Notes under the pieces: model-generated
What the model was told of the DNA's origin: nothing
The model's input: only the letters and a program-made list of their open reading frames with translations
Database searches by the model: none
NCBI GenBank assembly: GCA_964342905.1
Contig: CAYFIG010000001.1
Coordinates: 1 to 37,225, forward strand
Reading direction: 5' to 3'
Origin: an uncultured bacterium
GTDB taxonomy: Bacteria > Methylomirabilota > Methylomirabilia > Rokubacteriales > CSP1-6
DNA: 37,225 nucleotides
Shown: one piece after another, positions 1 through 29,286 of the stretch
Position numbering within the stretch: the stretch's first letter is position 1
How the letters are laid out: every line of letters begins with the position of its first letter
Translations under genes and position numbers: made by a program

Positions 1-42
1 CGAACTGCCGGCTTCCACCCGCGCAACAGCCCGCATCAGCAT
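1..42 (-). CDS. 5' end of an unidentified gene following gvpN (partial, runs off window)
   Basis: ATG at 42-40 is preceded by GGAGGTGG (55-48) 8 nt upstream. Only 14 codons are visible (MLMRAVARVEAGSS), so the product cannot be identified. An alternative ATG overlaps the gvpN stop at 58-56. Confidence 0.25.
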   Translation of the reverse strand, partial: MLMRAVARVEAGSS

Positions 43-57
43 CGAGTCCACCTCCCA

Positions 58-972
58 TCAGCAGTACTGCCTGACAAACTTCTTCACCAGCTCCCTGACC
101 TTGGCCTGGTTGCTCTTGCTCCCCACCCGGCTGGTCTCGGAGGCCAGGATGTCCCGGCAGACCTGCTGGAAGACCGCGCTGGACCCCTTGACGTGACCAT
201 TCAGCACCGTGAGAGATTTGGCGATCATGATCGCGCCGCGAACGGTGGGGGTGAACTCGCAGACGCCGGACTCCCGGAGAGCCCGGACGACCTTGACGAT
301 CTTCGCCGCGTCCTTCCGCAGAAGGCCGGACTTCGCCAGGACGATGGCTATCTCCGTCTCCTCATCGAAGTGATCCAGGTCCATCGTGATCATCCGGTCG
401 CGGAGGGCATCCTGACTCCGATGCACCCCGGCATACTCCTCGGGGTTCGAGGTGAAGAGGGCCGTGAAGTTCGGATCCACCCTGAGATAGCTCTCGTCTC
501 CCCCCCGGCCGACAGGGAGGTCCATCATCCGCTCCTGGAGGATGGAGAGGAGGATGTTATTCGCCTCAGGCCGGGAGCGGGTGAACTCGTCATAGATGAG
601 GGTGAAGCCGTACTTGCAGGCGACGGTGAGGCGGTTATCCACCCACCGTTTGACCATGTCCTCTTCGACTTTCAGGACCCGGGAGACAAAGCGGTCGATG
701 ACCTTCCTCAGGTGATAACCGTACTCACCTCCAACCAGGTTCGAGGTCGTGAACTCCTCGTCGCCGTGGATCATCACTACCGGGCGCTTGAGCTTGCTCG
801 CCACGTGGAGGGCCAGGGTGGTTTTCCCCGTGCCGGAGGCCCCGCGGAAGTGGACCGGGAACCCCGCCTTGCTATAGCCCAGGGCCCGCTCGGTCAGGTC
901 TTTGACGAACTTTGTCTCCACAAAATCCGGCAGAGGGGTGGGCTCGAGGATCGTGGTGAGTTCCTCAATCAT
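58..972 (-). CDS. gvpN: gas vesicle protein GvpN (AAA+ ATPase, MoxR/CbbQ-like)
   Basis: 304-aa ORF with Walker A GASGTGKT. Length and overall sequence look like the GvpN family. It is co-directional with and downstream of gvpA. Confidence 0.9.
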   Translation of the reverse strand: MIEELTTILEPTPLPDFVETKFVKDLTERALGYSKAGFPVHFRGASGTGKTTLALHVASKLKRPVVMIHGDEEFTTSNLVGGEYGYHLRKVIDRFVSRVLKVEEDMVKRWVDNRLTVACKYGFTLIYDEFTRSRPEANNILLSILQERMMDLPVGRGGDESYLRVDPNFTALFTSNPEEYAGVHRSQDALRDRMITMDLDHFDEETEIAIVLAKSGLLRKDAAKIVKVVRALRESGVCEFTPTVRGAIMIAKSLTVLNGHVKGSSAVFQQVCRDILASETSRVGSKSNQAKVRELVKKFVRQYC

Positions 973-981
973 GGTTGCCTC

Positions 982-1320
982 CTACACGAGAAGGACAGCG
1001 CGAGGGGTGAGCACGCCTCTCCCGCGGCAGTGAGTGCAGGGGAGGCCGCTCCCTAGGGTCCGTCCGCTCCCGTGGCAATCAGGACATGACTTCCCGGGAC
1101 CACCGGGGGTCACAACTCCCCTCCCACCACAGACCTGGCAGGTGATCCTCGTCCCGTAGGGCTGGACCCCGCTCCCCCGACAGTAGGCACACCGAGCCAC
1201 TGGTTCCTCCATATTGACCGTGCCCTTCCCCAAGCAGACCTGGCACCGGGCCAGGCGCGAGAGGAGGCCGAACGGATCGGACCCCTTCCCCCGGCAGAAC
1301 TCGCACCGCATCGCCGTCAT
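982..1320 (-). CDS. small cysteine-rich protein with six DnaJ-type CxxCxGxG zinc-finger motifs
   Basis: 112-aa ORF containing CEFCRGKG, CQVCLGKG, CAYCRGSG, CQVCGGRG, CPDCHGSG and CTHCRGRG. A purine-rich SD (AGGAAAGGGGGAAGAG) sits directly upstream of the ATG at 1320. The ORF ends 9 nt before the gvpN start. Confidence 0.8.
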   Translation of the reverse strand: MTAMRCEFCRGKGSDPFGLLSRLARCQVCLGKGTVNMEEPVARCAYCRGSGVQPYGTRITCQVCGGRGVVTPGGPGKSCPDCHGSGRTLGSGLPCTHCRGRGVLTPRAVLLV

Positions 1321-1353
1321 CTCTTCCCCCTTTCCTGTTCAGCCTTTGATGTC

Positions 1354-1710
1354 TCAGCGAGCTGGGCCTGCGGCCGTGGACTCCTGGTTCGCGCGTCCCA
1401 TAGGCTCCCTCGCGTCCGCTGGAACATCCCTCATCCAGCCACGGCAACGCAGTTCCACGCGAAGACGAGTCGGCATGGCCTCTGACCAATAGGCGAGGGA
1501 GAACTGATTGCATCCCAGGCTCGTCAACTCTTGCTTCATCTCAGCGACGGGCCGGGCAAGCTGGTCGGCGAGGTCTCCGCCATGAACACCGACTTCCCGC
1601 CAGATCGCCATCTCGCCCCCAATCCCTTGAACAGGCCAAAGCGCGAGGAAGGCGACAAGCATTACCGCCCCCAGCCAGAAAGAAGAACCCCGCACAGCCT
1701 TAAGAGACAT
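1354..1710 (-). CDS. hypothetical small protein with N-terminal hydrophobic (signal/anchor-like) segment
   Basis: 118-aa ORF with hydrophobic stretch FWLGAVMLVAFLALWPV near the N-terminus. Its ATG is embedded in the last codons of the upstream gene (GCG AAT GTC TCT TAA), and GGAGGAGGGGG lies just upstream. I recognise no family. Confidence 0.5.
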   Translation of the reverse strand: MSLKAVRGSSFWLGAVMLVAFLALWPVQGIGGEMAIWREVGVHGGDLADQLARPVAEMKQELTSLGCNQFSLAYWSEAMPTRLRVELRCRGWMRDVPADAREPMGRANQESTAAGPAR

Positions 1711-2308
1711 TCGCCCCCTCCTCCCTTCTCAACTGCGCAGGTGAAGCCAAATCATTCTTGGACCAGCGCCGGGACTGGATGGCGCTGAGGGTAGCCTTGA
1801 ATTCCACGACCCTAACGGAGCTCCCGTTGGAAAGGAGTCCGTGGAGGGCCCGGACCAGCTCGTCCTGCTCGCTTTGGAAGTCAGCCAGGAGGGTCCTGAC
1901 TTCCCGCTCCCGCTCCTCTCGTCTCGCCTCGATCCCTTTCAAGAGTTCCTTGACAGTTCCGATCCGTTCGGCTTCGCCTCTAGCCAGAGCCTCCTTCAGG
2001 GCGGCCGCCAGTGCCCTCTGCTCAGCCAGGTAGTCCTTTATCGTTTCTTTGATCGCCCTCTCGCGCTCCTCTTGGCGGACGAGGATCCCCTCCATCATCG
2101 CGTCGAAGTCCCGCCTCCTCAGAGAAGCGACCCGGGCCAGGGTCTCCCTGAGCTGGGCCCTCATCGCCTCCCGCTGGCGCCGGAAGGTCTCCAGCATTTC
2201 GTGAGTGGCCTCGACAATTCGCTCTACCCACGAGATCCTGGCCTCGTAGGAGGCGATGACCTCCCGGGCCAGGGGCCCCATCTGCTCTGGGACATGAATA
2301 CTTGTCAT
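1700..2308 (-). CDS. coiled-coil, Arg/Glu-rich protein with internal repeats; paralogue of 2333-2794; candidate GvpC-like gas-vesicle accessory protein
   Basis: 202-aa ORF that is strongly helical and charged. The motif GILVRQEERERAIKETIKDYLAEQ recurs as GIEARREEREREVRTLLADFQSEQ. It shares the motif F(D/Q)AM..GI..RQEER.R with the neighbouring 153-aa protein. The start is uncertain (ATG at 2308 or at 2281). Confidence 0.7.
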   Translation of the reverse strand: MTSIHVPEQMGPLAREVIASYEARISWVERIVEATHEMLETFRRQREAMRAQLRETLARVASLRRRDFDAMMEGILVRQEERERAIKETIKDYLAEQRALAAALKEALARGEAERIGTVKELLKGIEARREEREREVRTLLADFQSEQDELVRALHGLLSNGSSVRVVEFKATLSAIQSRRWSKNDLASPAQLRREEGANVS

Positions 2309-2332
2309 TCGTGTTCGTGACTTGTCCTTCCC

Positions 2333-2794
2333 TCAGCGGGCAAGGCCGGCGCGTTTCTTCGCCATCGCAGCGGCCATATGCTGCCAGTGGCCAGAGGCGG
2401 CCTCACGCTCCCGCCAGAAGCCATTCAGCATGCTTGCCATCTCCCTGTTCCTTTCCTCCTGGCGAGCTCTGATGCCCTGATGCATCGCCTGGAACTCCCT
2501 CATCCGGGAAAACGCGGCGTTGCCAAGGAATCGTCTAAGGTCCGCTGCCTTCCGCCTGAGCTCGTGCTGAATATTTTTCATCTCCTGCCGAAAACCCTTC
2601 AGCTTCGCCGCGGTCTCTTGCCTGAGGGCCGCCACCGTTGCCACCCGGGCGTCGAACGAGCTGGCGATCTCCTGGGCCAGGGCCCGCATGTCCTCGGCCA
2701 GTCGCATCGTGCCGAACCTCCCTTCTCGTGAAACTTCCTCCTGCGAGAAGTGGAAAGTCTCAGGAGCCTTCTTTGTTTTTTTCCTGAATACCAT
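2333..2794 (-). CDS. coiled-coil Arg/Glu-rich protein; paralogue of 1700-2308; candidate GvpC-like gas-vesicle accessory protein
   Basis: 153-aa ORF with a strong SD (AGGAGGGAATC) before the ATG at 2794. LAQEIASSFDARV...EFQAMHQGIRARQEERNREMASML aligns with LAREVIASYEARI...DFDAMMEGILVRQEERERAIKETI of the 202-aa protein. Confidence 0.78.
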   Translation of the reverse strand: MVFRKKTKKAPETFHFSQEEVSREGRFGTMRLAEDMRALAQEIASSFDARVATVAALRQETAAKLKGFRQEMKNIQHELRRKAADLRRFLGNAAFSRMREFQAMHQGIRARQEERNREMASMLNGFWREREAASGHWQHMAAAMAKKRAGLAR

Positions 2795-2806
2795 GATTCC
2801 CTCCTG

Positions 2807-2822
2807 GGGCGCTGATGCGCCC
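2807..2822 (-). other. GC hairpin (GGGCGC-AUCA-GCGCCC) abutting the SD of the 153-aa gene
   Basis: Perfect 6-bp G/C stem with a 4-nt loop, ending 1 nt upstream of AGGAGG. It overlaps an 8-nt direct repeat CGCTGATG (2810-2817 and 2822-2829). Confidence 0.35.
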
Positions 2823-2912
2823 GCTGATGTTAGTCAGGAGAGAGATCCTGGCGAGACACGCTCGGCGGTCGTCCGCTCAAGGGTACCCCGGCAGAAACCC
2901 CTCACTGGTCCT

Positions 2913-2939
2913 GGCAGCCGGCCTTACGCCGGCGCTGCC
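2913..2939 (-). other. GC-rich hairpin with the gvpA stop codon in its loop
   Basis: RNA GGCAGC-GC-CGGC-GUAAG-GCCG-GCUGCC gives about 10 bp with a 2-nt bulge. The UAA stop (2926-2924) lies in the loop. No U-tract follows. Confidence 0.35.
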
Positions 2940-3139
2940 GCCGTGGCGGTCAGGCCGATGGCCTCGGCGTACTTCAGGTACGTCTCGACTGAGGCCACCA
3001 CTACCCGGGCCTCGATGGCCAGAAGCTCGATCCCCACCAGGGAGAGACGAACCCAGGCATCGATGACCACGCCCTTATCCAGGATCCGGTCGACCACTTC
3101 CACCAGGCTGGACGACGCGATTGCCTTCTCTACTGCCAT
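2924..3139 (-). CDS. gvpA: major gas vesicle structural protein GvpA
   Basis: 71 aa: [64 protein letters not shown]... This is the near-invariant GvpA core. I place the start at the ATG at 3139 rather than the GTG at 3145 used in the track. The SD AGGAGGTGA lies upstream. Confidence 0.97.
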
Positions 3140-3146
3140 GCTCACC

Positions 3147-3578
3147 TCACCTCCTTTCTGTTTGCCCCTCAGGGCCGCTGCCTACCGGCTCGAGCGAGGG
3201 GCTTTCTAGGCCCTCTTTGACGACCCGCCTCAAGAGGGCCGCCACCTGGTCCAGTTCAAAGGGCTTCGAGATGAAGCCTTGATACGCGCCGCGCTGGATC
3301 CCCTCTTGGATCGGCGGATCCGCCCCGTAGTGGTAGCCCGAGATCACCACAATCGGGAGCCGGGGGGCGAGCTGCCGGATGGTGTGCGAGACCTCGAGGC
3401 CGCTCTTGCCAGGGAGCTTGACGTCGATGATGGCCACATCAAAGCTCCGCTCCCCCACCGCCTGGATCGCGTCCTCGCCCCGGTGGGCTTGGGTGATGTG
3501 CACCCCGTCGTCCGCCAGGCCCTTCTCTAGGGCCCAGCAGACGTCCTTCTCGTCGTCCACGACGAGGATTTCAAGCAT
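3147..3578 (-). CDS. single-domain CheY-like response regulator (receiver only)
   Basis: 143 aa with the acidic pocket VVDDEKD, phospho-acceptor context [11 protein letters not shown], plus VVISGY and SKPF. There is no output domain. Its last codons (AGG AGG TGA) form the SD of gvpA, which starts 7 nt after the stop. Confidence 0.92.
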
Positions 3579-5076
3579 CCGGCCTCTCCGCCGGAAGGAT
3601 GACAGTAAAGGTGGAACCCCTACCCACCTCGCTCTCCACCCGGATCGTGCCGCCGTGCTGTTGGACGATGCTGTAGGCGATGGAGAGGCCCAGCCCCGTG
3701 CCTTTCCCCGCCGGCATGGTCGTGAAGAAGGGGGTGAAGATGCGGGGAAGGTGCTCCTCGGAGATCCCGCACCCGGTGTCGGCGAAGCTGACCTCGATCC
3801 ACGCCTGGTAATCAGGCGGGGCGAGCCCGGTCTCTACGGTGAGCCGACCGCCTTCGGGCATGGCATGATAAGCGTTCAGCATGATGTTCATGAAGACCTG
3901 TTGGAGCAGGTTTTTGTTGCCTCTCACCCCCGGGAGCTCCGGGGCCAGGCGCTTTTCTATCTCAATGGACTGAAGGGAGATCTGATGGCCGATGAGGGAG
4001 AGGGCGTCTTCGATGGCGCCGTTGATGTCCACCCGCTCCACCATTCCCTCCGAGGGGCGGGCGAACCGGAGGAGGGTTTCGATGATGGCGCCGGCCCGGT
4101 TGGCGGCTGTGTGGATCTTCTCGGAGCACTCGCGCCGGACGCCGGGGTCATCCGCCTTCTTCAGGAGAATCTGGGCGGCGGAGGAGATGATGGCCAGGGG
4201 GTTCCGGATCTCGTGGGCGATGCCGCCGGCCATCTCCCCGAGGGCGGCCATCTTGGCCGACTGGATCAACCGGAGTTCCAGCTGTCGCTTCTCCGTCAGG
4301 TCCCGCCCCACCCCCACCAAGGCCACCACCCGCCCGCCCGCGTCCCGCATGGCTGAAAACCGCCAGGAGATGAGGAGCTCCTCGCCACCTTTCGCCCTCA
4401 TCCGGGTCTCCAGCTCCTGGACTCTCCCTTCCCGAGCCAGCTCGGCGAGGAGGGCCTGGAGGTGGGGCCGGTCGGCCTCCAACGAGAACTCGGCAATCTG
4501 CCTCCGCTCCACCTCCTGGGGTGAGAACCCCAGGATCCGGGCGGCGGCCCTGTTCCAGGTCATCACCGCGCCGGTCGGATCCAGGGAGACGATCAGGTCG
4601 TTGGCGCTCTCCACGACGCTGGCCAGGTGGCGTTCGGCGTCTCTCGCTCGGTCGCCCAGGTTCTTTTTCTCCGTCACATCGTCCATGAAGAGCATTACCC
4701 TCGCTACCCGCCCGTTCCCATCCTTCAGGGGAGCCAGGCTGTAGAAATAGATGCGGGCGGTCAGCCCCGGAGCTCGGTACTCCACCTCCCCGCCCTCGAA
4801 TGGCCTGCCGGTCTGGTACACATCCCGGATCTGCTCCTCCAGGCCGGTATACGAGAGGATGACAGGCGGGAAGACCTCGCTGATCCGCTCCCCGAGCACC
4901 GCCCCTTCCTGTTTCCTCAACTTGGAAAGAAAGTTCCGGTTAGCAAAGGTCACCCTCAGGGCGCTGTCGAGGATCAGGATGGAGGAGGGAATATGGGTGA
5001 GAATGTCCGTGTGGAAGTTCTGCTCACCTGCGTCCGGGACGGTCACGTCGCCGACGGCCCCGCTTTGCCTCTTCAC
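3571..5076 (-). CDS. soluble PAS-domain sensor histidine kinase (PAS-PAS-HisKA-HATPase_c)
   Basis: H-box AHEIRNPLAII, N-box MNIMLNAYHAM, G1 FADTGCGI, G2 GKGTGLGLSIAY. Two PAS-like regions, and no hydrophobic transmembrane segments. The 3' end overlaps the response-regulator start by 8 nt. The TTG at 5181 used in the track lies inside a sigma54 promoter, so I prefer the GTG at 5076 (SD AAGGAGAAGG at 5094-5085). The ATG at 5154 is an alternative. Confidence 0.88.
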   Translation of the reverse strand: MKRQSGAVGDVTVPDAGEQNFHTDILTHIPSSILILDSALRVTFANRNFLSKLRKQEGAVLGERISEVFPPVILSYTGLEEQIRDVYQTGRPFEGGEVEYRAPGLTARIYFYSLAPLKDGNGRVARVMLFMDDVTEKKNLGDRARDAERHLASVVESANDLIVSLDPTGAVMTWNRAAARILGFSPQEVERRQIAEFSLEADRPHLQALLAELAREGRVQELETRMRAKGGEELLISWRFSAMRDAGGRVVALVGVGRDLTEKRQLELRLIQSAKMAALGEMAGGIAHEIRNPLAIISSAAQILLKKADDPGVRRECSEKIHTAANRAGAIIETLLRFARPSEGMVERVDINGAIEDALSLIGHQISLQSIEIEKRLAPELPGVRGNKNLLQQVFMNIMLNAYHAMPEGGRLTVETGLAPPDYQAWIEVSFADTGCGISEEHLPRIFTPFFTTMPAGKGTGLGLSIAYSIVQQHGGTIRVESEVGRGSTFTVILPAERPDA

Positions 5077-5177
5077 GCTGGTTGCCTTCTCCTTCGGGGG
5101 CAATGGACAGGCCCCCCGGCACTTGCGGGAGAGAACTTCGTTGTGCGAGTGCATCGATCTACACGTGCAGAAGAGGG

Positions 5178-5192
5178 GCAAGGTTTATGCCA
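5178..5192 (-). promoter_or_regulatory. sigma54 (-24/-12) promoter upstream of the HK-RR-gvpA operon
   Basis: The minus strand reads TGGCAT-AAACC-TTGC, against the consensus TGGCAC-N5-TTGC. The GG and GC dinucleotides are at the exact spacing. It lies in the 312-nt gap between the sigma54 activator gene and the kinase gene. Confidence 0.65.
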
Positions 5193-5240
5193 GGCGCTCG
5201 GGGAGACCACACGACCCCTCACTTGCCCGGCGGCAGCCAG

Positions 5241-5280
5241 ATATGCAAGAGATGTATGAGAATATGTATGAGACAAGAGA
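5241..5280. repeat. AT-rich island of about 12-nt direct repeats (ATATGCAAGAGA / TGTATGAGA / ATATGTATGAGA / CAAGAGA)
   Basis: ATGTATGAGA occurs at 5252-5261 and again at 5264-5273, with degenerate copies flanking them. The island sits about 50-90 nt upstream of the -24 element. Confidence 0.5.
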
Positions 5281-5316
5281 AACCTGGTGAAATTCCCTCT
5301 GGGCGCCCGACCAGAA

Positions 5317-5350
5317 CTATGGCAACAACTCCCTGGGCCGGATGCCATAG
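5317..5350. promoter_or_regulatory. 8-bp perfect inverted repeat CTATGGCA-N18-TGCCATAG; candidate enhancer (UAS) for the sigma54 activator
   Basis: The arms at 5317-5324 and 5343-5350 are exact reverse complements. The repeat is roughly 125-160 nt upstream of the -24 element at 5192. Confidence 0.4.
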
Positions 5351-5493
5351 CAGCGCGGGCTGGACGGGGGGCGATCGGAGAAGTGTGAAGAGGACGGTCA
5401 GGAGGGTGAGGAAGTCTTGGACCTTCTGCTCATGTCGCTTCGTAATTCTTCAAACCGGCGCTCATGTCATTGGAGGATCCTTGCCCGGCCACG

Positions 5494-6891
5494 TCACGAC
5501 GCCAGGAACTCCTGAGTCAAGATGCCGTAGCGCTTCATCTTAAGGTGCAGGGTCTTATAGTCGGTCTTGAGGACCCGGGCCGCCTCGCTCTTGTTACCTT
5601 TGGTGGCCTCGAGGGCCAGGCGGATCACCTGCCGCTCCGCCTCAGCGATGGCCGTTTTCCTCGTTTCTTTCAGGGAGAGACCCACCGCTCCGGGCCCCCA
5701 CTCTGCGGCTGAAGGTGCCCCCAGAGATCCGGCCCCCAGGGCCGCGAGATGCTCCGGCCTGATCACATCCGGGCTCAGCAGGACAGTCCTGCGAATGGCG
5801 TTCCTGAGTTCGCGAGCGTTGCCCGGCCAGGGATGGTCGAGGAGAAACTGGGCTGCCTCCTCTGATAGCCCCCGCACCGGCCGCTTTAGCTCCATGCTGG
5901 CTTCTTCCAGAAAGCGCTTGGCCAAGTAGAGGATGTCTTCCTTCCGCGCCCGGAGGGGCGGAAGGGTGATGGCGAACTCGTTCAGGCGGTAGTAGAGGTC
6001 CTGCCTGAACCGGCCGGCTCGCATCTCCTTCTCCAGCGGGAGGTTGGAGGCGGCGATGATCCGCACGTCCACCGAGACCGTGCGTTTGGCACCCAGGGGC
6101 TGCACCCGTCGCTCCTGCAGGACCCGCAGGAGCTTCGACTGGGTGGTCAACGGGAGGTTAACGATCTCGTCGAGGAAGAAGCTTCCCCCCTCGGCAAGGT
6201 GAAAATGGCCCTCCTTCTTCCTGTCGGCACCGGTAAAGGCCCCTTTCTCGTAGCCGAACAGCTCCGACTCGATCAGCGTCTCGGGGATGGCCCCGCAGTC
6301 CAGGGCGATGAAGGGGTTCTCGTGTCGGGCGCTCTGCTGGTGGATAGCCCGGGCCACCAGTTCCTTGCCCGTTCCCGTCTCCCCCTGGATGAGGACGGTA
6401 AAGGTCGACCCAGCCACCTGCCTCACCTGCTGGATGACCTTTTGGATCTCCGGAGTCCGACCCATCAACTCCCCGAGGGAGCCACCCGCGCCGAGCTGAC
6501 TCCTGAGCGCCTCGAGCTCGGCCAGCAGCGCCTGCCGCTCGAGGGCCTGCCGCACGGTCAGGATGATCTGATCGTTGTGAAACGGCTTGGTGAGGAAGTC
6601 GTAAGCCCCCAGCCGGAGGGCCTGGACCGCTGCGGGGATGTCCCCGTAGGCCGTGAGCATGATCACCGGAAGTGCGGGAGCGATCACCTTGAGCTTGGCG
6701 AGAGTCTCCATCCCGTCGAGCCCTGGCATCTTGAGATCCAGGATGACGGCTGCGGGAGCCTCCGCCAGGACCCGGTCCAGGGCGGCCTGGCCGTCCTCCG
6801 CCTCGACTACCTCGAACCCTTCGACGCAGAGCACCTCCGCCAAGAGCCAGCGCATATCGGCTACGTCATCAACCACCAGGATCTTTGGCAT
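5494..6891 (-). CDS. NtrC-family sigma54-dependent response regulator (REC + AAA+ sigma54-interaction + Fis-type HTH)
   Basis: 465 aa counted from MPKILVVDD. Walker A GETGTGKE, sigma54-contact loop GAFTGA, and C-terminal HTH GNKSEAARVLKTDYKTLHLKMKRYGI. The 26-codon N-terminal extension in the track overlaps the upstream gene and is not REC-like. Confidence 0.93.
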   Translation of the reverse strand: MPKILVVDDVADMRWLLAEVLCVEGFEVVEAEDGQAALDRVLAEAPAAVILDLKMPGLDGMETLAKLKVIAPALPVIMLTAYGDIPAAVQALRLGAYDFLTKPFHNDQIILTVRQALERQALLAELEALRSQLGAGGSLGELMGRTPEIQKVIQQVRQVAGSTFTVLIQGETGTGKELVARAIHQQSARHENPFIALDCGAIPETLIESELFGYEKGAFTGADRKKEGHFHLAEGGSFFLDEIVNLPLTTQSKLLRVLQERRVQPLGAKRTVSVDVRIIAASNLPLEKEMRAGRFRQDLYYRLNEFAITLPPLRARKEDILYLAKRFLEEASMELKRPVRGLSEEAAQFLLDHPWPGNARELRNAIRRTVLLSPDVIRPEHLAALGAGSLGAPSAAEWGPGAVGLSLKETRKTAIAEAERQVIRLALEATKGNKSEAARVLKTDYKTLHLKMKRYGILTQEFLAS

Positions 6892-7558
6892 TTTTGCCCG
6901 GCTCCTGTCCGGTGCTTCCCGACGTCTCAAGATCCAGCATCGGTCCGACTCCCGGGTGGAACGTGGCAACGGGCTCGACGATAGCGGAAAGCCGCCGAAT
7001 CACCTGGGTGATTCGCTCGCAGCGTTCGAGGATGACCTTTACCCTCTCGACAGCCTTCGCTTCCCTCAGCTCTCTCTCCAGCATCTCGGCGTGGCCAACG
7101 ATAGCGGCCAGAGGGTTATTAATCTCGTGGCTCAGCGCACGCGCCGCCTCCAGGAGGGTCGCAACCTTGGCGGCCCTGAGGGACGCTGCTTCCAGATCCC
7201 TCTTTTCCAACGCCCTTCTCACGGTGAAGACGATCTCGTCGTTGTCAAACGGCTTGGTGAGGAAGTCGTAGGCCCCCAGCCGGAGGGCCTGGACGGCGGA
7301 GGGCAGATCGCCATAGGCAGTGACGATCACGACGAGCATATGGGGAGCCACCGCCCTTGCCTGCTCCAGAACCTGGATGCCTTCGAGCCCCGGCATCCTA
7401 AGATCTAGGAGGACCACGTCCGGGGGCTCGCGCGTGATCTGCTCGAGGGCAGCCTGGCCGTCCTCTGCCGCGACCACCTGGAAACCCTGATCTCGGAGCA
7501 CACCCGTCAGGAGCCAGCGCATGTCGGGCTCGTCATCCGCCACTAGCGCTTTCGGCAT
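6869..7558 (-). CDS. receiver domain fused to a HisKA/DHp domain, with no HATPase_c catalytic domain
   Basis: 229 aa. The REC domain (MPKALVADDE...TKPF) is followed by the H-box ALSHEINNPLAAIVGHAEML and about 60 further residues, with no N/G1/G2 boxes. The REC domain is paralogous to the REC of the next gene. Confidence 0.85.
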   Translation of the reverse strand: MPKALVADDEPDMRWLLTGVLRDQGFQVVAAEDGQAALEQITREPPDVVLLDLRMPGLEGIQVLEQARAVAPHMLVVIVTAYGDLPSAVQALRLGAYDFLTKPFDNDEIVFTVRRALEKRDLEAASLRAAKVATLLEAARALSHEINNPLAAIVGHAEMLERELREAKAVERVKVILERCERITQVIRRLSAIVEPVATFHPGVGPMLDLETSGSTGQEPGKNAKDPGG

Positions 7559-7822
7559 TGCCAGCTTCGTTATCCCACCCGGGCCTGAACGCTCTTAGGA
7601 ACCATGGCCGGAGAAAAGCGATGAATCAGCTTTCGTGTGCCCGCTGGCTTTCTACAATCGAAGATGCGAACGAGGTGAAACCGAGCGGGGGCTGCCACCC
7701 AGCTCGAACGGAATCACCGATACGCTCGTCATCGGGGTAAGATTCGGGCATCAACCGATGACAGCCCTACTACCTCACGTGGCTACTCCCTTCCCTTAAA
7801 CGATGAATTTCTCGGGGAGAAC

Positions 7823-7846
7823 GAAAAAGACAGACGGAGACCGTCT
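7823..7846 (-). terminator. intrinsic-terminator-like hairpin plus U-tract
   Basis: The minus-strand RNA reads AGACGG-UCU-CCGUCU followed by GUCUUUUUCGUUCU. That is a 6-bp stem with a 3-nt loop and a U-rich tail. The upstream segments GGAGAC and UCUGG can pair alternatively with GUCUCC and CCAGA. Confidence 0.45.
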
Positions 7847-7945
7847 CTGGAAAACCGCGAGTCTCCAGACCGGGAGCGTTGGTCGTGAACCGGTTTCGTG
7901 GTTTCCACCAACGAATGTGCAAAGTCGGTTTCGCCAAACGCTACC

Positions 7946-7960
7946 GCAAGCTCCGTGCCA
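7946..7960 (-). promoter_or_regulatory. sigma54 (-24/-12) promoter, exact consensus match
   Basis: The minus strand reads TGGCACG-GAGC-TTGC, which equals the consensus TGGCACG-N4-TTGC. It is about 390 nt upstream of the REC-DHp gene start (7558) and about 100 nt upstream of the hairpin at 7823-7846. Confidence 0.7.
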
Positions 7961-8164
7961 AATCCCAAGCACCCCGCTTGCGCAGCAGTTCCGAGTAATA
8001 AAGGAGGTCTCTAGCGCCTGCCGCGTCTCCCATAGAGGCCAGAAGGCCCTTCAGTCTGCCACTTCGAATCAGCGCGTCATAGCTGGGAGTGGCGGGCAGC
8101 CTGGCCGGTTAAGCCTTTTTGCCGGAAGGGACCATTCGCGTTGTCACTTCATTCAATTTTTCTT

Positions 8165-8194
8165 TTTTATCCACTTTTCCCCGTGGCTTGTCAA
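8165..8194 (-). promoter_or_regulatory. sigma70-like promoter (TTGACA-N18-ATAAAA with TGn extended -10)
   Basis: The minus strand has TTGACA (8194-8189), an 18-nt spacer ending in TGG, then ATAAAA (8170-8165). It lies in an AT-rich patch of the non-coding gap. No convincing ORF follows. Confidence 0.3.
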
Positions 8195-8596
8195 GGGCCA
8201 GGCGAGAGGCGTCCGTTGAGAAATTAGAAATAGGGGTCGAGGTTCCGTTGCACGCTTCTTCTCGGAGCCCCTCCAAGCTGAAAAAGTGGACGCGTCTACG
8301 GGCACGGGAGCGCGAAGACAACCCTACAAACCCTTTCATCGCCGCCCCCGGTCCTGCACCGGCTCCGGTGCCGGCAGGCCTTGCGCTGCGCCCGACCGCC
8401 GGATGGAACACCGGGCCTCGGCGATTCCGATCCCTCCCACACACTCTCTTTCCGAAAAAGGGAAGCAATTACAAAGCCAATACGAGTAGCGTTCCACGTG
8501 TTTACGTGAAGTGGTTGATTATCTGGCTTTACTTCGGGCTCAGGGGGGGGAGGAGGTTCCGACTTGAATTCAACGAAAATCCCGCGCTGGAGGTGT

Positions 8597-9715
8597 TTAG
8601 AGCGTCCGATAGAGGTCGGCAAACGCGCGGACCTGGGACGCGAAGGTGAACGGGCGGACAGCGGCGCGCGCGCGCTCAGTCATGAGGGCCGGTTCAGCGT
8701 TTCTGAGCGCCTCCAGCCCGTTGGCGATGGCCGCAGGATCTTCGGGGTTCTCGAGGATCCAGCCGGTCTCGTCGTGACTTACGACTTCAGCCCCGCCGCT
8801 CCTTCCGCTCGCCAGGACCGGGAGCCCCGCGGCCAAGGCCTCGAGGTGGACATTGCCAAAGGGCTCATAGAGAGAGGGGAGGGCGACCACATCCGCCGCG
8901 GCGTAGAAGCGTTCCACGTCGGGGCGCGACCCGGCCCAAGCCAGACGTCCTGCGACGCCAAGTCGCTCGGCGACGGCGCGATAGGGCCCTGGACTCCCCT
9001 TCCCGACCACCAGGAGCCATGCGCCGCGGCCGCGGAATCTGGCGAATCCCTCGATGAGGGGACCCAGGCCCTTCCGCTCGAACCCCGAACCGACCATGAG
9101 GATGACCCAGGCATCCCTCGGGATCCCGAACTCGGCCCGGATCGCCGGACCGAACCGCTTCCGGTGATCCGGATGAAAGCGCTCCTGATCCACGCCGTTG
9201 TAAATCACCGTGAGCCGGGACTCGGGCACCCCGTAGAGCCTCCGGATCTCCTCTCGCCCCTGGCGCGAGATGGCAACGATCCTCCGGGTTGAGCCCGAGG
9301 TAAAGATTCTGCGCTCAAGCGACAAGAGCAACAGGTGGGAGGGATTGGCTCGAAGTGCGAGCCGCCTTGCGCTCCCCAGGTGCCGCGCCTTGACTCTAAG
9401 ATAGGCTCGATGGCACCCCTCTCCGGCTCGGTAGATATCCTGCGTGAGGCTCCGTTCGTGGCTCTGAACCACGTCAAAGCGATCCCGCACGACCCCCATG
9501 CGGGCAGCCAGGACGAATGAGATGAGGCGCGCCGGTGGCGGATACGGGATCACTGGGAGTCGGTGAAGCGTCGCTCCCGGGACCGGGAACTGCCCTGGAG
9601 GGCTGAAGAGATGGAGATCGTATCCCTGCCTCACGAACTCCTCGATCAGCCCCGCGGTGGCGTTCTCCAGGCCGCCGTAGAAGACAAACGGACGGCAGAT
9701 GATGGCCACTCTCAC
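8597..9715 (-). CDS. glycosyltransferase family 4, WaaG/RfaG-like (LPS core glycosyltransferase)
   Basis: 372 aa. FVFYGGLENA, DIYRAGEGCHRAYL, MVGSGFERKGL and the E-x7-E region resemble WaaG. This is the last gene of the LPS operon. Confidence 0.85.
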   Translation of the reverse strand: MRVAIICRPFVFYGGLENATAGLIEEFVRQGYDLHLFSPPGQFPVPGATLHRLPVIPYPPPARLISFVLAARMGVVRDRFDVVQSHERSLTQDIYRAGEGCHRAYLRVKARHLGSARRLALRANPSHLLLLSLERRIFTSGSTRRIVAISRQGREEIRRLYGVPESRLTVIYNGVDQERFHPDHRKRFGPAIRAEFGIPRDAWVILMVGSGFERKGLGPLIEGFARFRGRGAWLLVVGKGSPGPYRAVAERLGVAGRLAWAGSRPDVERFYAAADVVALPSLYEPFGNVHLEALAAGLPVLASGRSGGAEVVSHDETGWILENPEDPAAIANGLEALRNAEPALMTERARAAVRPFTFASQVRAFADLYRTL

Positions 9716-18898: not shown

Positions 18899-19691
18899 CG
18901 CTCACGATGGAGATTCCCGAGCTGTTGGCCCGTGCGACGACGGATTCAAGGTCGAGGATGGCGACTTTTCCTGCCTCCACAGCCAGGGCCCGGGCTCCGC
19001 CGCGAGCCATGGTCTGCAGGGTGTCCGGTCCCACAGTGGGAAGGTCAAAACGGTAGTCCGCTTGAGCCGCGATGGCCTTGACCACCACCGCTCCTGGACC
19101 TGAAAGCTGGCAACCCCGCCGAATGGTCTCGCTGGTCCCCTCGATGGTCTCGACTGCCACCGCGACTCCACGTGAGACCACCACAGTCTGCCCCACCCCG
19201 TACTCCGCGCATTGGCGGGCGAGGCGGAGGCCGAGACTGATGTCTTGCCACTCCGCCTCAGAGGGTGGGCGCGCGGTGAGGGTGCCCGCGGGGGCCAGAA
19301 GGTTGGCCAAGAAGGTGCGCTGGTCCAGAACCTCGATGCCGAGCGTCGACAGCGTATCTGCCACAGCCATGCCAAGCGCAACATCGGAAAGCCCGCCAGC
19401 CCCGGTGAGGATCTGGTGCGCCGTGGCATCGAGCGCGCTCGCGTCGAACAGGATTGCTTTGCGGAGCGTTCCAGAAAAGACGACGGCAGTGACCCGCTCG
19501 GCCCGAAGCGATTCCAGTACGCGGCCAACCTCGGTCAGGCGGCTTGGGATCACGCGATGGACCAGAGGCTCGAGCTCCGACGCGTCCCCGAAGGCGAAGG
19601 CCACCACGCGCCAGCCCTGACGAACTGCCTCAGCGGCGACGCGGCCGGGCAGGGTCCCGGCGCCGACGATCAGGCCGAGCGTCTGCTCCAC
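18882..19691 (-). CDS. lpxI: UDP-2,3-diacylglucosamine pyrophosphatase LpxI (DUF1009 family)
   Basis: 269 aa with LGLIVGAGTLP at the N-terminus and FDLPTVGPDTL...ALAVEAGKVAILD at the C-terminus. It lies between lpxA and lpxB, as in LpxI-type lipid A clusters. Confidence 0.8.
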   Translation of the reverse strand: MEQTLGLIVGAGTLPGRVAAEAVRQGWRVVAFAFGDASELEPLVHRVIPSRLTEVGRVLESLRAERVTAVVFSGTLRKAILFDASALDATAHQILTGAGGLSDVALGMAVADTLSTLGIEVLDQRTFLANLLAPAGTLTARPPSEAEWQDISLGLRLARQCAEYGVGQTVVVSRGVAVAVETIEGTSETIRRGCQLSGPGAVVVKAIAAQADYRFDLPTVGPDTLQTMARGGARALAVEAGKVAILDLESVVARANSSGISIVSVDGDG

Positions 19692-28218: not shown

Positions 28219-29286
28219 CTAGACCTCCTGGGTCCAGCCGCGAGAGTCCGGGACCCGGGCGTACTGGATGTCAACGATCGCCTGGTACAGGCGTTGCGTC
28301 AGCTCACCGATACGTCCTTCATGAATCACGATGCGCTCACCCCGGTACGCGAGCTCACCGACGGGCGAGATGACCGCGGCGGTCCCGGTGCCCCAGACCT
28401 CACGGAGCGTCCCGTTGCGGGCGGCGGCGATCACCTCGTCGATCGTGATCGGGCGCTCGGACACGGAGAGCCCCCATTCGCGCAGGAGGATCAGCACCGA
28501 GTCCCGGGTCACGCCGGAGAGGATCGTGCCGGTAAGCGGAGGGGTGACGATCTCATCGCCGAGCCGCAGCATGATGTTCATGGTCCCGACTTCCTCGACG
28601 TACTTCCGATGAACGCCGTCGAGGTAGAGGACCTGGGTGAATCCGGAGTGGTGCGCTTCTTCGGCGGCGAGGAGGCTCGCGGCATAGTTGCCGCCGGTCT
28701 TCGCCTCGCCGACCCCACCTTCCACGGCGCGGACGTATTTCTCCATGACCAGGATCTTGACCGGGTTCATCCCCTCGGGGTAGTAGGCGCCGACAGGCGA
28801 GAGGATCACATAGTACAGGTAGGACTTCGCCGGCCGGACGCCGAGGAAGGGCTCGGTAGAGATTATGGTGGGTCGGACGTACAGGGCCGTGCCCACGCTG
28901 GAGGGAACCCAGTCGCGCTCCAGCTCCACCAGCTCCACGAGCGACCGGAGCGCCAGATCCGGGTCCAGCGGCGGGATGCACATGCGCCTGGCAGAGCTGT
29001 TGAGCCGCTCGATGTGCTTCCCGGGCCGGAACAGGCGCACCCAGCCGTCCACGCCTCGGAAGGCCTTGAGCCCCTCGAAGACCGACTGCGCGTAGTGGAG
29101 AACCGCTGTGGCCGGATCCAGGGACAAGGGCCCGTACGGCTCGATGCGCGGGTCGTACCAGCCTTTCTCCTCCTGGTAGTCCAACAGGAACATGTGATCG
29201 GTAAAGACCGTGCCGAACCCGAGATCCTTGTCCTTTGGCTTCGGCTTCTTCGTGGCCGCCCGGTTGATCCTGATCGCGTCGCTCAT
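28219..29286 (-). CDS. ilvE: branched-chain amino acid aminotransferase (PLP fold type IV)
   Basis: 355 aa from the ATG at 29286 (MSDAIRINRA...), with GFGTVFTDHMF, EGLKAFR, GEAKTGGNYAASL and GVTRDS. Confidence 0.9.
   Translation of the reverse strand: MSDAIRINRAATKKPKPKDKDLGFGTVFTDHMFLLDYQEEKGWYDPRIEPYGPLSLDPATAVLHYAQSVFEGLKAFRGVDGWVRLFRPGKHIERLNSSARRMCIPPLDPDLALRSLVELVELERDWVPSSVGTALYVRPTIISTEPFLGVRPAKSYLYYVILSPVGAYYPEGMNPVKILVMEKYVRAVEGGVGEAKTGGNYAASLLAAEEAHHSGFTQVLYLDGVHRKYVEEVGTMNIMLRLGDEIVTPPLTGTILSGVTRDSVLILLREWGLSVSERPITIDEVIAAARNGTLREVWGTGTAAVISPVGELAYRGERIVIHEGRIGELTQRLYQAIVDIQYARVPDSRGWTQEV

What the first reader, a model, noticed from the sequence alone, without database searches (positions are those of the whole stretch)
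5178..5192. Sigma54 promoter placed to drive kinase, CheY-like regulator, gvpA and downstream gvp genes
The minus strand reads TGGCAT-AAACC-TTGC, with the invariant GG and GC at consensus spacing. It lies in the gap directly downstream of a sigma54 activator gene and upstream of the kinase-RR-gvpA string.

This gives a concrete model: the adjacent enhancer-binding protein activates gas-vesicle structural gene transcription through RpoN.

It also shows that the TTG start at 5181 in the track lies inside the promoter. The kinase therefore more likely begins at the GTG at 5076, which has an AAGGAG-type SD.
Basis: partly seen in the sequence, partly recalled or inferred. Interest (0 to 1): 0.66.

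Follow-up and report, generated by a model that had tools for sequence, protein, structure and literature searches.

The report
Sigma-54 promoter driving gas-vesicle operon
A textbook-quality sigma-54 promoter, conserved in related uncultured bacteria, sits just after its likely activator gene and ahead of a sensor kinase, a small regulator and the main gas-vesicle gene; this resembles the gas-vesicle control known in Serratia, but wired differently.

Summary
The minus strand at 5192-5178 reads TGGCATAAACCTTGC. It is the best sigma-54 site in the whole 37 kb window. An equivalent GG-N10-GC site lies in the same gap, on the same strand, in every orthologous locus examined, while the flanking sequence has diverged.

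The gene upstream encodes a complete NtrC-type activator with a GAFTGA motif. A conserved 54-bp block of two 7-6-7 palindromes, a candidate enhancer, lies about 140-175 bp upstream of the predicted start.

Downstream, kinase, CheY-like regulator and gvpA are packed with 7-8 nt junctions. There is no other sigma-54 site, no sigma-70-like site and no terminator.

Homologue N-termini and a conserved Shine-Dalgarno support GTG 5076 as the kinase start.

The principle is already known: in Serratia, GvrA and sigma-54 drive gvpA1. Related plasmid clusters in Methylosinus and Methylocella have the site directly before gvpA, and clusters without the activator lack it. What differs here is the position: the promoter precedes the kinase and regulator, so sensor, regulator and structural gene form one unit.

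No start site, rpoN gene or activator binding could be tested. This is a solid, well-supported annotation of moderate novelty.

The parts
5177..5192 (-). Sigma-54 -24/-12 promoter element TGGCATAAACCTTGCC (GG at 5191-5190, GC at 5179-5178)
   Evidence: Sequence read. Pattern statistics. Weight-matrix rank 1 of 74,420. GG and TTGC are invariant in 8 orthologous loci while the flanks diverge.
5164..5168 (-). Predicted transcription start (about 5166), giving a leader of about 90 nt to GTG 5076
   Evidence: Inferred from the standard sigma-54 geometry, with the start 11-12 nt after the C of the GC. Not tested. The leader shows no special fold (z = +0.39).
5297..5350 (-). Candidate activator-binding enhancer (UAS). 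Dyad A is CTATGGC-N6-CCCAGGG (5350-5331), followed by half-site GCCATAG (5323-5317), then dyad B TTCTGGT-N6-CCCAGAG (5316-5297). The dyad centres lie at about -175 and -141, 34 bp apart.
   Evidence: Besides the Shine-Dalgarno/start region, this is the only part of the gap conserved at blastn level. Ten-locus alignment has 80% column identity. The exact pattern CTNTGGC-N6-GCCANRG occurs only in this gap of orthologous loci among the 92 loci held. The arms are 86% complementary against 31-46% in slid controls, without covariation, so it is a palindromic protein site rather than an RNA helix.
5241..5282 (-). AT-rich spacer with the 9-nt direct repeat CTCATACAT (5272-5264 and 5260-5252), lying between the enhancer and the promoter. 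It may be a bending or IHF-like region.
   Evidence: Sequence read. Not conserved in orthologues. Its function is inferred only.
5074..5095 (-). Shine-Dalgarno GAAGGAGAAGG (5095-5085) and the GTG start codon of the kinase (5076-5074)
   Evidence: Seven of 23 homologues start exactly at this column, as M/V-K-K-x-S-G. The Shine-Dalgarno plus start is conserved in L081, L083, L084 and L092. The 5181-5077 extension has GC1 below GC2, unlike the gene body.
3571..5076 (-). Cytoplasmic PAS-PAS-HisKA-HATPase sensor histidine kinase (GvrB-like), 501 aa
   Evidence: Pfam. 40% identity over 485 aa to the kinase linked to the gvp cluster of the Methylocella tundrae plasmid.
3147..3578 (-). Single-domain CheY-like response regulator (GvrC-like). 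It overlaps the end of the kinase gene by 8 nt.
   Evidence: Pfam. 37% identity to the regulator linked to the Methylocella gvp cluster.
2924..3157 (-). gvpA (ATG 3139 to stop 2924) with a strong Shine-Dalgarno AAAGGAGGTGA (3157-3147) embedded in the 3' end of the regulator gene
   Evidence: NCBIfam GvpA scores 132 bits against a cut-off of 100. Sequence read. The leader GAGGGGCAAACmGAAAGGAGGTGAG is conserved in 5 loci.
2795..2923 (-). Conserved, structured intergenic RNA after gvpA, including a hairpin that sequesters the Shine-Dalgarno of the next gene
   Evidence: 74% column identity. RNAalifold finds compensatory changes in 9 of 48 pairs. Single-sequence fold z = -2.84. No T-run terminator.
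58..2794 (-). Downstream gas-vesicle genes: three unknown ORFs (2794-2333, 2308-1700, 1710-1354), a DnaJ-type zinc-finger ORF (1320-982) and gvpN (972-58)
   Evidence: Pfam and NCBIfam, with GvpN at 339 bits against a cut-off of 267. The same order is seen in L081-L085. No terminator was predicted.
5494..6891 (-). NtrC-type enhancer-binding protein (REC, sigma-54 AAA+ and HTH_8 domains; GvrA-like), 465 aa. It has GAFTGA, Walker A GETGTGKE and the REC phospho-acceptor residues.
   Evidence: Pfam. Translation. 47% identity to the activator linked to the Methylocella gvp cluster.
6869..7558 (-). REC plus HisKA protein without an ATPase domain (a likely phosphotransfer or phosphatase module). It overlaps the activator gene start by 23 nt.
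   Evidence: Pfam. A conserved neighbour in L081-L084 and L092.
7945..7960 (-). Second sigma-54-like site, TGGCACGGAGCTTGCG, upstream of the regulatory operon
   Evidence: Equivalent sites precede the regulatory operon in L081, L082, L084 and L086.

Best explanation
The site at 5192-5177 (minus strand) is a functional sigma-54 (RpoN) promoter.

Proposed mechanism. RNA polymerase carrying sigma-54 binds the -24 GG and -12 GC and waits as a closed complex. The NtrC-type activator encoded immediately upstream (6891-5494) is switched on by phosphorylation of its receiver domain. It assembles on the two 20-bp palindromes at about -175 and -141 (5350-5297). It then contacts the polymerase by DNA looping and uses ATP hydrolysis through its GAFTGA loop to open the promoter.

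Transcription starts near 5166. It runs through a 90-nt leader into the PAS kinase (start GTG 5076), the CheY-like regulator and gvpA, and probably on into the following gas-vesicle genes through gvpN. High GvpA output is obtained at the translational level, through a near-perfect Shine-Dalgarno. The next gene is damped by a conserved hairpin that sequesters its Shine-Dalgarno.

Because the kinase and regulator sit inside the activated unit, the circuit is probably self-reinforcing.

Shown here: the sequence element, its conservation, the activator's domains and motifs, and the gene packing. Inferred: sigma-54 binding, the start site, the activator binding the palindromes, the phosphorylation route, feedback, and the extent of read-through.
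For: The site is exact and statistically unusual and is the top matrix hit in the window.

In 12 related loci the best site in the gap after the activator gene ranks 1st, 2nd or 4th in the whole locus. GG and TTGC are invariant while the flanks diverge.

The promoter stays next to the activator gene when the gene order changes. In L087 and L088 the order is activator, site, gvpA...gvpN, kinase, regulator.

In the Methylocella and Methylosinus plasmid gvp clusters, whose Methylocella activator, kinase and regulator are homologous (47%, 40% and 37% identity), the top site in each locus lies 74-81 nt before gvpA. Two gvp clusters without an activator have no such site.

The activator has GAFTGA, a Walker A motif, the REC residues and an HTH_8 domain.

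A conserved double-palindrome block lies 89-189 bp upstream of the site.

Kinase, regulator and gvpA are joined by an 8-nt overlap and a 7-nt gap. In L003 the kinase and regulator are fused and abut gvpA.

There is no other sigma-54 site above 8 bits on this strand from 5177 down to 1, and no sigma-70-like site or terminator.

Published precedent: in Serratia, gvpA1 has a consensus sigma-54 site upstream of its 5'RACE-mapped start and depends on GvrA, GvrB and GvrC (PMC4982088).
Against: There are no transcript or start-site data.

rpoN is not in the window or in any sequence held, and the rest of the genome could not be searched.

The window's own palindromes are imperfect (1-2 mismatches each), and the short dyad pattern alone is not enriched in the window.

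The -12 element is TTGCC rather than TTGCA/T.

It is unusual for the most abundant structural gene to be third in an operon. Where the gap before gvpA is 60-130 nt (L083, L085, L086), a separate promoter cannot be excluded.

No terminator separates the activator gene from the promoter, so read-through from upstream may also contribute.
Confidence: 0.72

Rival explanations
1. The sigma-54 promoter is real but serves mainly the kinase and regulator, as a regulatory feedback unit. Most gvpA mRNA would come from a separate, unrecognised promoter or processing site inside or just after the regulator gene.
For: gvpA is normally the first, most highly expressed gene of its operon. A roughly 35-nt segment before gvpA is conserved even where it is non-coding (L083, L085). 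The gap between regulator and gvpA is 60-130 nt in L083, L085 and L086. In Methylosinus and Methylocella the sigma-54 site is directly before gvpA, after the kinase and regulator.
Against: In the window, L081 and L082 the gap is only 6-7 nt, and in L003 gvpA overlaps the fused kinase-regulator gene. The conserved segment is fully explained by a strong Shine-Dalgarno. No sigma-54 site above 8 bits and no sigma-70-like site lies between 5177 and 2924. In L087 and L088 the same type of site is the only candidate promoter before gvpA.
Confidence: 0.14
2. The promoter is real but is activated by a different enhancer-binding protein, not the adjacent one. The conserved palindrome block would then be something else, for example a leftover of the activator gene's 3' coding end.
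For: Binding was not tested. In L083 and L086 the block coincides with the last codons of the activator gene (YGI..LP*), so part of its conservation could be coding or historical. Sigma-54 activators can act on distant promoters.
Against: In the window, L081, L082, L084, L089 and L092 the block is a separate non-coding copy that keeps the palindrome, while the coding copy has lost it. Adjacency of activator gene and promoter survives rearrangement. In NC10-like loci a different activator recognition helix goes with a different upstream repeat, GGGAATC/GATTCCC. Presence of the activator tracks presence of the site across gvp clusters.
Confidence: 0.09
3. This is a chance match to the sigma-54 consensus in a GC-rich intergenic region, and the operon is read from an unrecognised sigma-70-type promoter or by read-through from the activator operon.
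For: Short consensus matches do occur by chance. One of the three pattern hits (28283-28297, + strand) lies antisense inside a gene and is probably fortuitous. No terminator follows the activator gene.
Against: The expected number of such matches in the whole window is 0.10. Positional conservation holds in about 10 independent loci with diverged flanks. The site co-occurs with activator genes in unrelated phyla and is absent from gvp clusters that lack the activator.
Confidence: 0.04

Closest known systems
Serratia sp. ATCC 39006 gvpA1 promoter with GvrA, GvrB and GvrC (Ramsay 2011; Tashiro 2016, PMC4982088)
   Same: An NtrC-family sigma-54 activator is encoded in the gas-vesicle cluster. A consensus -24/-12 site lies upstream of the transcription unit that contains gvpA. 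A further regulator pair (GvrB, GvrC) is encoded in the cluster in the same order as the kinase and regulator here. All three regulators are needed for gvpA1 expression in Serratia.
   Different: In Serratia the regulators are in their own sigma-70 operon (gvrA...gvrC), and the sigma-54 site is directly before gvpA1. Here the site precedes the kinase and regulator, so they are co-transcribed with gvpA, and the activator operon itself carries a sigma-54-like site. That GvrB is a kinase and GvrC a CheY-like regulator rests on my memory of the papers.
Plasmid gvp clusters of Methylosinus sp. C49 (NZ_AP022334.1) and Methylocella tundrae (NZ_LR536451.1)
   Same: The same module and order: activator ... 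PAS kinase, response regulator, gvpA, unknown gene, gvpN. The Methylocella proteins are 47%, 40% and 37% identical to the window's. The top sigma-54 site of each locus sits in the unit (TGGCATGACCTTTGCC and TGGCTCCGTTCTTGCA).
   Different: Their site lies between the regulator and gvpA, 74-81 nt before gvpA. A gvpF/L gene separates the activator from the kinase. No function is annotated for these sites.
NtrC acting at glnAp2 in enteric bacteria (the classic sigma-54 enhancer; from established knowledge)
   Same: A REC, AAA+ and Fis-type HTH activator. Two palindromic sites about three helical turns apart, more than 100 bp upstream of a -24/-12 promoter. Activation controlled by phosphorylation.
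   Different: Different half-site sequence (CTnTGGC-N6-GCCAnrG against TGCACC-N5-GGTGCA), different regulon and different sensor. Here part of the enhancer overlaps, or derives from, the activator gene's own 3' end.
AtoS/AtoC two-component system (the best NCBIfam matches)
   Same: It gives the highest-scoring curated models for the activator (419 bits) and the kinase (316 bits). It is a cytoplasmic-type PAS kinase paired with an NtrC-family activator.
   Different: Both scores are far below the family cut-offs (714 and 646), so these are not AtoC or AtoS orthologues. The target genes are unrelated.
Haloarchaeal GvpE/GvpD regulation of gvpA
   Same: Regulators encoded within the cluster control the gvpA promoter.
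   Different: An unrelated mechanism: a leucine-zipper-type activator and an archaeal basal promoter, with no sigma-54 and no two-component signalling.

Membership tests
Sigma-54 (RpoN) -24/-12 promoter | GG and GC doublets exactly 10 bp apart within TGGCAC-N5-TTGCW | tested here: met
   The site reads TGGCAT-AAACC-TTGC-C, with 1 mismatch to the 16-mer consensus (W to C). It is the top matrix score in the window.
Sigma-54 (RpoN) -24/-12 promoter | Located in a non-coding region upstream of a transcription unit and on the same strand | tested here: met
   It lies in the 417-nt gap, 100 nt before GTG 5076, with all genes on the minus strand.
Sigma-54 (RpoN) -24/-12 promoter | Element conserved at the same position in orthologous loci | tested here: met
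   GG and TTGC are invariant in 8 loci with unconserved flanks. The site ranks 1st to 4th in each of 12 loci.
Sigma-54 (RpoN) -24/-12 promoter | A cognate enhancer-binding protein with a GAFTGA loop is available | tested here: met
   The adjacent gene encodes REC, Sigma54_activat (E = 3e-70) and HTH_8 domains, with GAFTGA and GETGTGKE present.
Sigma-54 (RpoN) -24/-12 promoter | Upstream activator sequence about 80-200 bp upstream | tested here: inconclusive
   A conserved double palindrome lies at -141 and -175, specific to this gap in orthologues. Binding was not tested, and the window's copy has mismatches.
Sigma-54 (RpoN) -24/-12 promoter | rpoN is encoded in the genome | not testable with these tools
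   It is absent from the window and from 1.0 Mb of held loci. Its presence is inferred from GAFTGA-type activators.
Sigma-54 (RpoN) -24/-12 promoter | Start site 11-12 nt after the GC, with transcription dependent on activator and ATP | not testable with these tools
   This requires 5'RACE or dRNA-seq and reporter or in vitro assays.
GvrA/GvrB/GvrC-type gas-vesicle regulation (Serratia model) | An NtrC-family activator is encoded in the gvp cluster, and a sigma-54 site lies upstream of the unit containing gvpA | tested here: met
   with the precedent. The same holds in the Methylosinus and Methylocella clusters.
GvrA/GvrB/GvrC-type gas-vesicle regulation (Serratia model) | A kinase-like and a CheY-like regulator pair are encoded in the cluster, in that order | tested here: met
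   A PAS kinase is followed by a REC-only protein. They are homologous over their length to the pair in the Methylocella gvp cluster. Sequence orthology to Serratia GvrB and GvrC was not tested.
GvrA/GvrB/GvrC-type gas-vesicle regulation (Serratia model) | The regulators form a separate sigma-70 operon, and the sigma-54 site lies immediately before gvpA | tested here: not met
   The site precedes the kinase and regulator, and there is no site before gvpA. The regulatory operon has its own sigma-54-like site at 7960-7945.
GvrA/GvrB/GvrC-type gas-vesicle regulation (Serratia model) | gvpA expression depends on the three regulators | not testable with these tools
   This needs genetics or heterologous reconstitution.

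The most novel reading that the evidence does not exclude
In this Rokubacteria/NC10-type lineage the ancestral sigma-54 gvpA promoter may have been relocated. The sensor kinase, the CheY-like regulator and the major structural gene would then form one activator-dependent transcript, a hard-wired positive-feedback (switch-like) buoyancy circuit. This differs from the two-operon design known in Serratia and seen in the Methylosinus and Methylocella plasmids. In addition, the enhancer may have originated from, and in some genomes may still be, the last 33 bp of the activator's own coding sequence, later duplicated into a free-standing site.
Probability: 0.3. Interest if true: 0.55.

Novelty: new member of a known kind. 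Interest (0 to 1): 0.38.

Why it matters
This gives a concrete, testable regulatory model for gas-vesicle formation in an uncultured soil and groundwater lineage. The held literature has no paper that mentions both Rokubacteria and gas vesicles.

It corrects a gene start. The database copy of the kinase begins at ATG 5154, and the mechanical ORF begins at TTG 5181, inside the promoter.

It shows that the pairing of an activator with a sigma-54 gvpA promoter, described in Serratia, is widespread. It occurs in Rokubacteria/NC10-type metagenome genomes and in alphaproteobacterial methanotroph plasmids, and it is modular: the promoter moves together with the activator gene.

The compact unit of promoter, enhancer and activator could be useful for engineering inducible gas-vesicle reporters.

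In itself this is a standard kind of promoter working in a known way.

Tried and rejected
- Rfam scans of the whole window, plus a sensitive scan of 5000-8700, found no known RNA family.
- The sigma-70 and terminator scans of 1-8600 found no sigma-70-like site. The only terminator-like hairpin is at 7848-7826.
- An RNA-structure or terminator reading of the palindrome block was rejected. There is no covariation beyond shuffles, no T-run, and the half-sites vary independently.
- The short dyad core TGGC-N6-GCCA is not enriched in the window (29 matches against 23 expected). CTNTGGC-N6-GCCANRG with up to 2 mismatches is not enriched either (16 against 9.8). Its significance comes only from conservation across loci.
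- I looked for a remnant of the 506-aa REC-PAS kinase that precedes the regulatory operon in orthologues. Only two short fragments remain, at about 7734-7560.
- I looked for rpoN in the window (Pfam on all large ORFs) and for an RpoN-box motif in all held sequence. Neither found it.
- Retrieving the source contig through the exact kinase protein failed. Cluster look-up gave no accession.
- Literature searches for Rokubacteria with sigma-54 or gas vesicles, and for Methylomirabilis with rpoN, gave nothing usable.
- The leader 5166-5070 has no significant fold.
- The extra region in L001 between the duplicated promoter modules has no recognisable domain.
- The sigma-54 weight matrix was built from my memory of the Barrios et al. 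1999 compilation. It is approximate and was used for ranking only.

Full report
OBSERVATION

The minus strand at 5192..5178 reads TGGCATAAACCTTGC. GG is at 5191-5190 and GC at 5179-5178, ten base pairs apart as in the sigma-54 consensus TGGCAC-N5-TTGCW (established knowledge, Barrios et al. 1999). The only deviation in the 16-mer is a C after TTGC.

The pattern TGGYAY-N5-TTGC occurs three times in the window against 0.10 expected from dinucleotide-preserving shuffles. I built an approximate sigma-54 weight matrix from memory and used it only for ranking. It puts 5177-5192(-) first of 74,420 positions on both strands, at about 16 bits. The next two hits are 8464-8479(-) and 7945-7960(-), which lie in the neighbouring non-coding region on the same strand.

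GENE CONTEXT

All genes are on the minus strand (Pfam and NCBIfam):
- 7558-6869: a REC plus HisKA protein without an ATPase domain.
- 6891-5494: an NtrC-type enhancer-binding protein.
- 5493-5077: a 417-nt gap that holds the site.
- 5076-3571: a PAS-PAS-HisKA-HATPase kinase.
- 3578-3147: a CheY-like receiver protein.
- 3139-2924: gvpA (132 bits against a cut-off of 100).
- Below that: three unknown ORFs, a DnaJ-type zinc-finger ORF, and gvpN at 972-58 (339 bits against a cut-off of 267).

The activator has MPKILVVDD...ILDLKMPG...LTKPF in its receiver domain, Walker A GETGTGKE, the sigma-54 contact motif GAFTGA, and a C-terminal Fis-type HTH.

The rest of the window (8.6-37 kb) holds housekeeping genes: glycosyltransferases, lipid A genes, bamA, clp, lolDE, lysS, prfB, lnt, nusB and ribH. 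It has no rpoN.

The closest named homologues of the kinase come from metagenome-assembled genomes labelled Candidatus Rokubacteria, NC10 or Nitrospirae.

COMPARATIVE EVIDENCE FOR THE PROMOTER

I fetched orthologous loci through kinase homologues. The order REC-PAS-kinase / REC-HisKA / activator / gap / kinase / regulator / gvpA / ... / gvpN / gvpF-L is conserved in L081-L084 and L092 (the contigs of L084 and L092 end within the regulator gene). L085 and L086 carry variants of the upstream regulatory genes, and L001-L003 and L089 keep the activator / gap / kinase core.

In every one of these loci, the best weight-matrix site in the gap after the activator gene, on the coding strand, ranks 1st, 2nd or 4th in the whole locus. 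It lies 36-112 nt before the kinase start.

With eight distinct loci anchored on the site, GG and TTGC are invariant while the 30 nt on either side are not conserved. The consensus is yGGCAC-N5-TTGC. blastn of the window's gap finds only two other conserved islands: a block about 55 bp long at 5357-5296, and the Shine-Dalgarno/start region at 5117-5079.

In two more distant NC10-like loci (L087, L088) the gene order differs: activator, gap, gvpA ... gvpN, kinase, regulator. The top site of each locus (TGGTACrACCCTCGCA) again lies just after the activator gene and before gvpA. So the promoter travels with the activator gene and with the unit that contains gvpA, not with the kinase.

EVIDENCE FROM UNRELATED BACTERIA

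A tblastn search with GvpN against plasmids found four bacterial gvp clusters that I examined.

Methylosinus sp. C49 and Methylocella tundrae carry the order: sigma-54 activator, gvpF/L, PAS kinase, response regulator, gvpA, unknown gene, gvpN. The Methylocella proteins are 47%, 40% and 37% identical to the window's activator, kinase and regulator over essentially their full lengths. In both plasmids the top-ranked sigma-54 site of the locus lies in the gap between regulator and gvpA, 74-81 nt before gvpA. The Methylosinus site TGGCATGACCTTTGCC is almost the window's sequence.

Two gvp clusters without an activator gene (Spartinivicinus, Octadecabacter) serve as negative controls. Within 400 nt upstream of gvpA they have nothing better than 4.0 and -0.4 bits.

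So presence of the activator and presence of a sigma-54 site ahead of gvpA go together.

CANDIDATE ENHANCER

The conserved block at 5350-5297 reads CTATGGC-ATCCGG-CCCAGGG ... GCCATAG-TTCTGGT-CGGGCG-CCCAGAG. That is two 7-6-7 palindromes of the form CTnTGGC-N6-GCCAnrG, 34 bp apart centre to centre, plus one extra half-site. With the start taken as 5166, they are centred at about -175 and -141.

Ten loci align without gaps at 80% column identity. The exact palindrome pattern occurs in nine of the 92 loci held, about 1 Mb in total, and every occurrence is in this gap of an orthologous gvp locus.

The arms are complementary in 86% of cells against 31-46% for slid controls, but covariation is no better than shuffles. 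This is the signature of a conserved palindromic protein site rather than an RNA helix.

The block lies 89-189 bp upstream of the -24 element across loci. Two dyads about three helical turns apart, more than 100 bp upstream, is the classic NtrC/glnAp2 layout (established knowledge).

In the window alone the dyads carry mismatches and are not statistically significant. Binding is therefore inferred, not shown.

One curious point. In L083 and L086 the first palindrome is the last 33 bp of the activator's coding sequence (...YGIxxRxxLP-stop). In the window, L081, L082, L084, L089 and L092 a separate non-coding copy 24-144 nt past the stop (about 220 nt in L085) keeps the palindrome, while the coding copy has lost it. 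This argues that the palindrome is selected as a DNA site.

NC10-like loci with a different recognition helix (IDEKTLRTK against TDYKTLHLK) have different repeats (GGGAATC/GATTCCC) at the same place. That is consistent with cognate pairs.

WHAT THE PROMOTER DRIVES

The kinase and regulator genes overlap by 8 nt. The regulator stop (3149-3147) is 7 nt from the gvpA ATG (3139). A near-perfect Shine-Dalgarno, AAAGGAGGTGA, for gvpA lies in the last codons of the regulator gene, and this leader is conserved in five loci. In L003 the kinase and regulator are fused and abut gvpA.

On the minus strand from 5177 down to 1 no other site exceeds 8 bits. No sigma-70-like site or intrinsic terminator is predicted.

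Co-transcription of kinase, regulator and gvpA is therefore the simplest reading. High GvpA yield would be achieved at translation.

The 129-nt gap after gvpA is more conserved than the promoter gap (74% against 58% column identity). It folds into a conserved structure whose 3' hairpin pairs CUCUCUCCUG with the next gene's Shine-Dalgarno CAGGAGGGA. Continuation into the downstream gvp genes is therefore likely, but with reduced translation. This step is inferred.

KINASE START

TTG 5181, the longest ORF, lies inside the promoter element. The database copy of this protein is 527 aa, which corresponds to ATG 5154, only about 12 nt from the predicted start and without a Shine-Dalgarno.

Seven of 23 homologues begin exactly at the column of GTG 5076 (M/V-K-K-x-S-G-A-L), and the longer N-termini share no conservation. 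The Shine-Dalgarno GAAGGAGAAGG followed by a GTG or TTG start is conserved in L081, L083, L084 and L092. The 5181-5077 extension has GC1 below GC2, the opposite of the gene body.

COMPARISON WITH WHAT IS KNOWN

In Serratia sp. [quoted passage not shown] A consensus sigma-54 site lies upstream of the 5'RACE-mapped gvpA1 start. GvrB and GvrC are also required. [quoted passage not shown]

The window is therefore a new member of this kind of system, in a different phylum.

It differs in its wiring. In Serratia, and in the Methylosinus and Methylocella plasmids, the sigma-54 site is directly before gvpA and the regulators are transcribed separately. Here the site precedes the kinase and regulator, so sensor, regulator and structural gene share one activator-dependent transcript. 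That would make the circuit self-reinforcing if the kinase feeds the activator, which is inference. The regulatory operon also has its own sigma-54-like site at 7960-7945, whereas gvrA has a sigma-70 promoter.

The best curated models for the activator and kinase are AtoC and AtoS, but far below their cut-offs. They are generic NtrC-family members, not Ato orthologues.

LIMITS

No transcript data were available. rpoN could not be sought in the rest of the genome, and its presence is inferred from the GAFTGA activators. Activator binding, the phosphorylation route and the extent of read-through are untested.

VERDICT

Novelty is moderate: a new lineage, a relocated promoter, and an enhancer tied to the activator's own 3' end.

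Noticed in passing
window 7559-8596 (minus-strand sense): This is about 1 kb with no credible ORF. It carries two further sigma-54-like sites, 7960-7945 (TGGCACGGAGCTTGCG) and 8479-8464 (TGGCTTTGTAATTGCT). A terminator-like hairpin with a T-run lies at 7848-7826, about 110 nt after the first site. This could be a sigma-54-dependent small RNA or an attenuated leader. There is no Rfam match.
   Followed up: partly
window about 7734-7560: In orthologous loci a 506-aa REC-PAS-HisKA-HATPase gene lies between the upstream sigma-54 site and the REC-HisKA gene. Here only fragments remain. About 7659-7560 matches its 3' end (74% to L084 2492-2592), and about 7734-7676 matches an internal piece in inverted orientation. 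The first kinase of the presumed phosphorelay has been lost in this genome.
   Followed up: partly
window 5350-5317 versus 5532-5494; L083 4709-4741; L086 4713-4745: The first enhancer palindrome is identical in position to the last 11 codons plus stop of the activator gene in L083 and L086 (YGIxxRxxLP*). In the window a non-coding copy (it reads YGIRPRELLP* if translated) sits 144 nt after the real stop. The true C-terminal coding copy (YGILTQEFLAS*) has lost the palindrome. This looks like a duplication of the gene's 3' end that freed the binding site.
   Followed up: partly
window 2795-2923 (minus strand): The gap after gvpA is more conserved across loci (74% column identity) than the promoter gap. 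It folds into a conserved structure: a hairpin across the gvpA stop codon, a long central stem, and a 3' hairpin that pairs CUCUCUCCUG with the next gene's Shine-Dalgarno. Nine of 48 pairs show compensatory changes. There is no Rfam family for it.
   Followed up: partly
window 5176-5165 and the equivalent positions in L001, L002, L003, L083, L084, L092: A pyrimidine tract (consensus CTCTCCTTCGC) directly follows the -12 GC in most loci, covering about -11 to -1. It is not part of the usual sigma-54 consensus. It may be a lineage-specific promoter feature or a second binding site.
   Followed up: no
L001 4498-4523 and 4630-4645: This locus has a second copy of the enhancer half (GCCATAG-TCTGGCAACTCCGCCAGA) plus a sigma-54 site (TGGCCCAACTTTTGCT). 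It lies about 1.35 kb upstream of the regular module, in front of an inserted region with no recognisable domains. This shows that enhancer and promoter duplicate together as a module.
   Followed up: partly
window 6869-7558 (minus strand): This 229-aa protein has a receiver domain and a HisKA domain (H-box HEINNPL) but no ATPase domain. It is conserved next to the activator gene in the Rokubacteria-type loci. It is likely a phosphotransfer or phosphatase intermediate in a multi-step relay feeding the activator.
   Followed up: no
window 28283-28297 (+) and 19359-19374 (-): Two further sigma-54-like matches (TGGTACAGGCGTTGC; TGGCATGGCTGTGGCA) lie inside coding regions, the first antisense to the aminotransferase gene and the second within lpxI. 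They are probably chance or non-productive intragenic sites.
   Followed up: no
window 982-1320 (minus strand): A 112-aa ORF with a DnaJ-type CXXCXGXG zinc-finger domain sits just before gvpN. Downstream GvpF/L proteins in orthologous loci carry DnaJ J-domain hits. This points to a chaperone-like component built into these gas-vesicle clusters.
   Followed up: no
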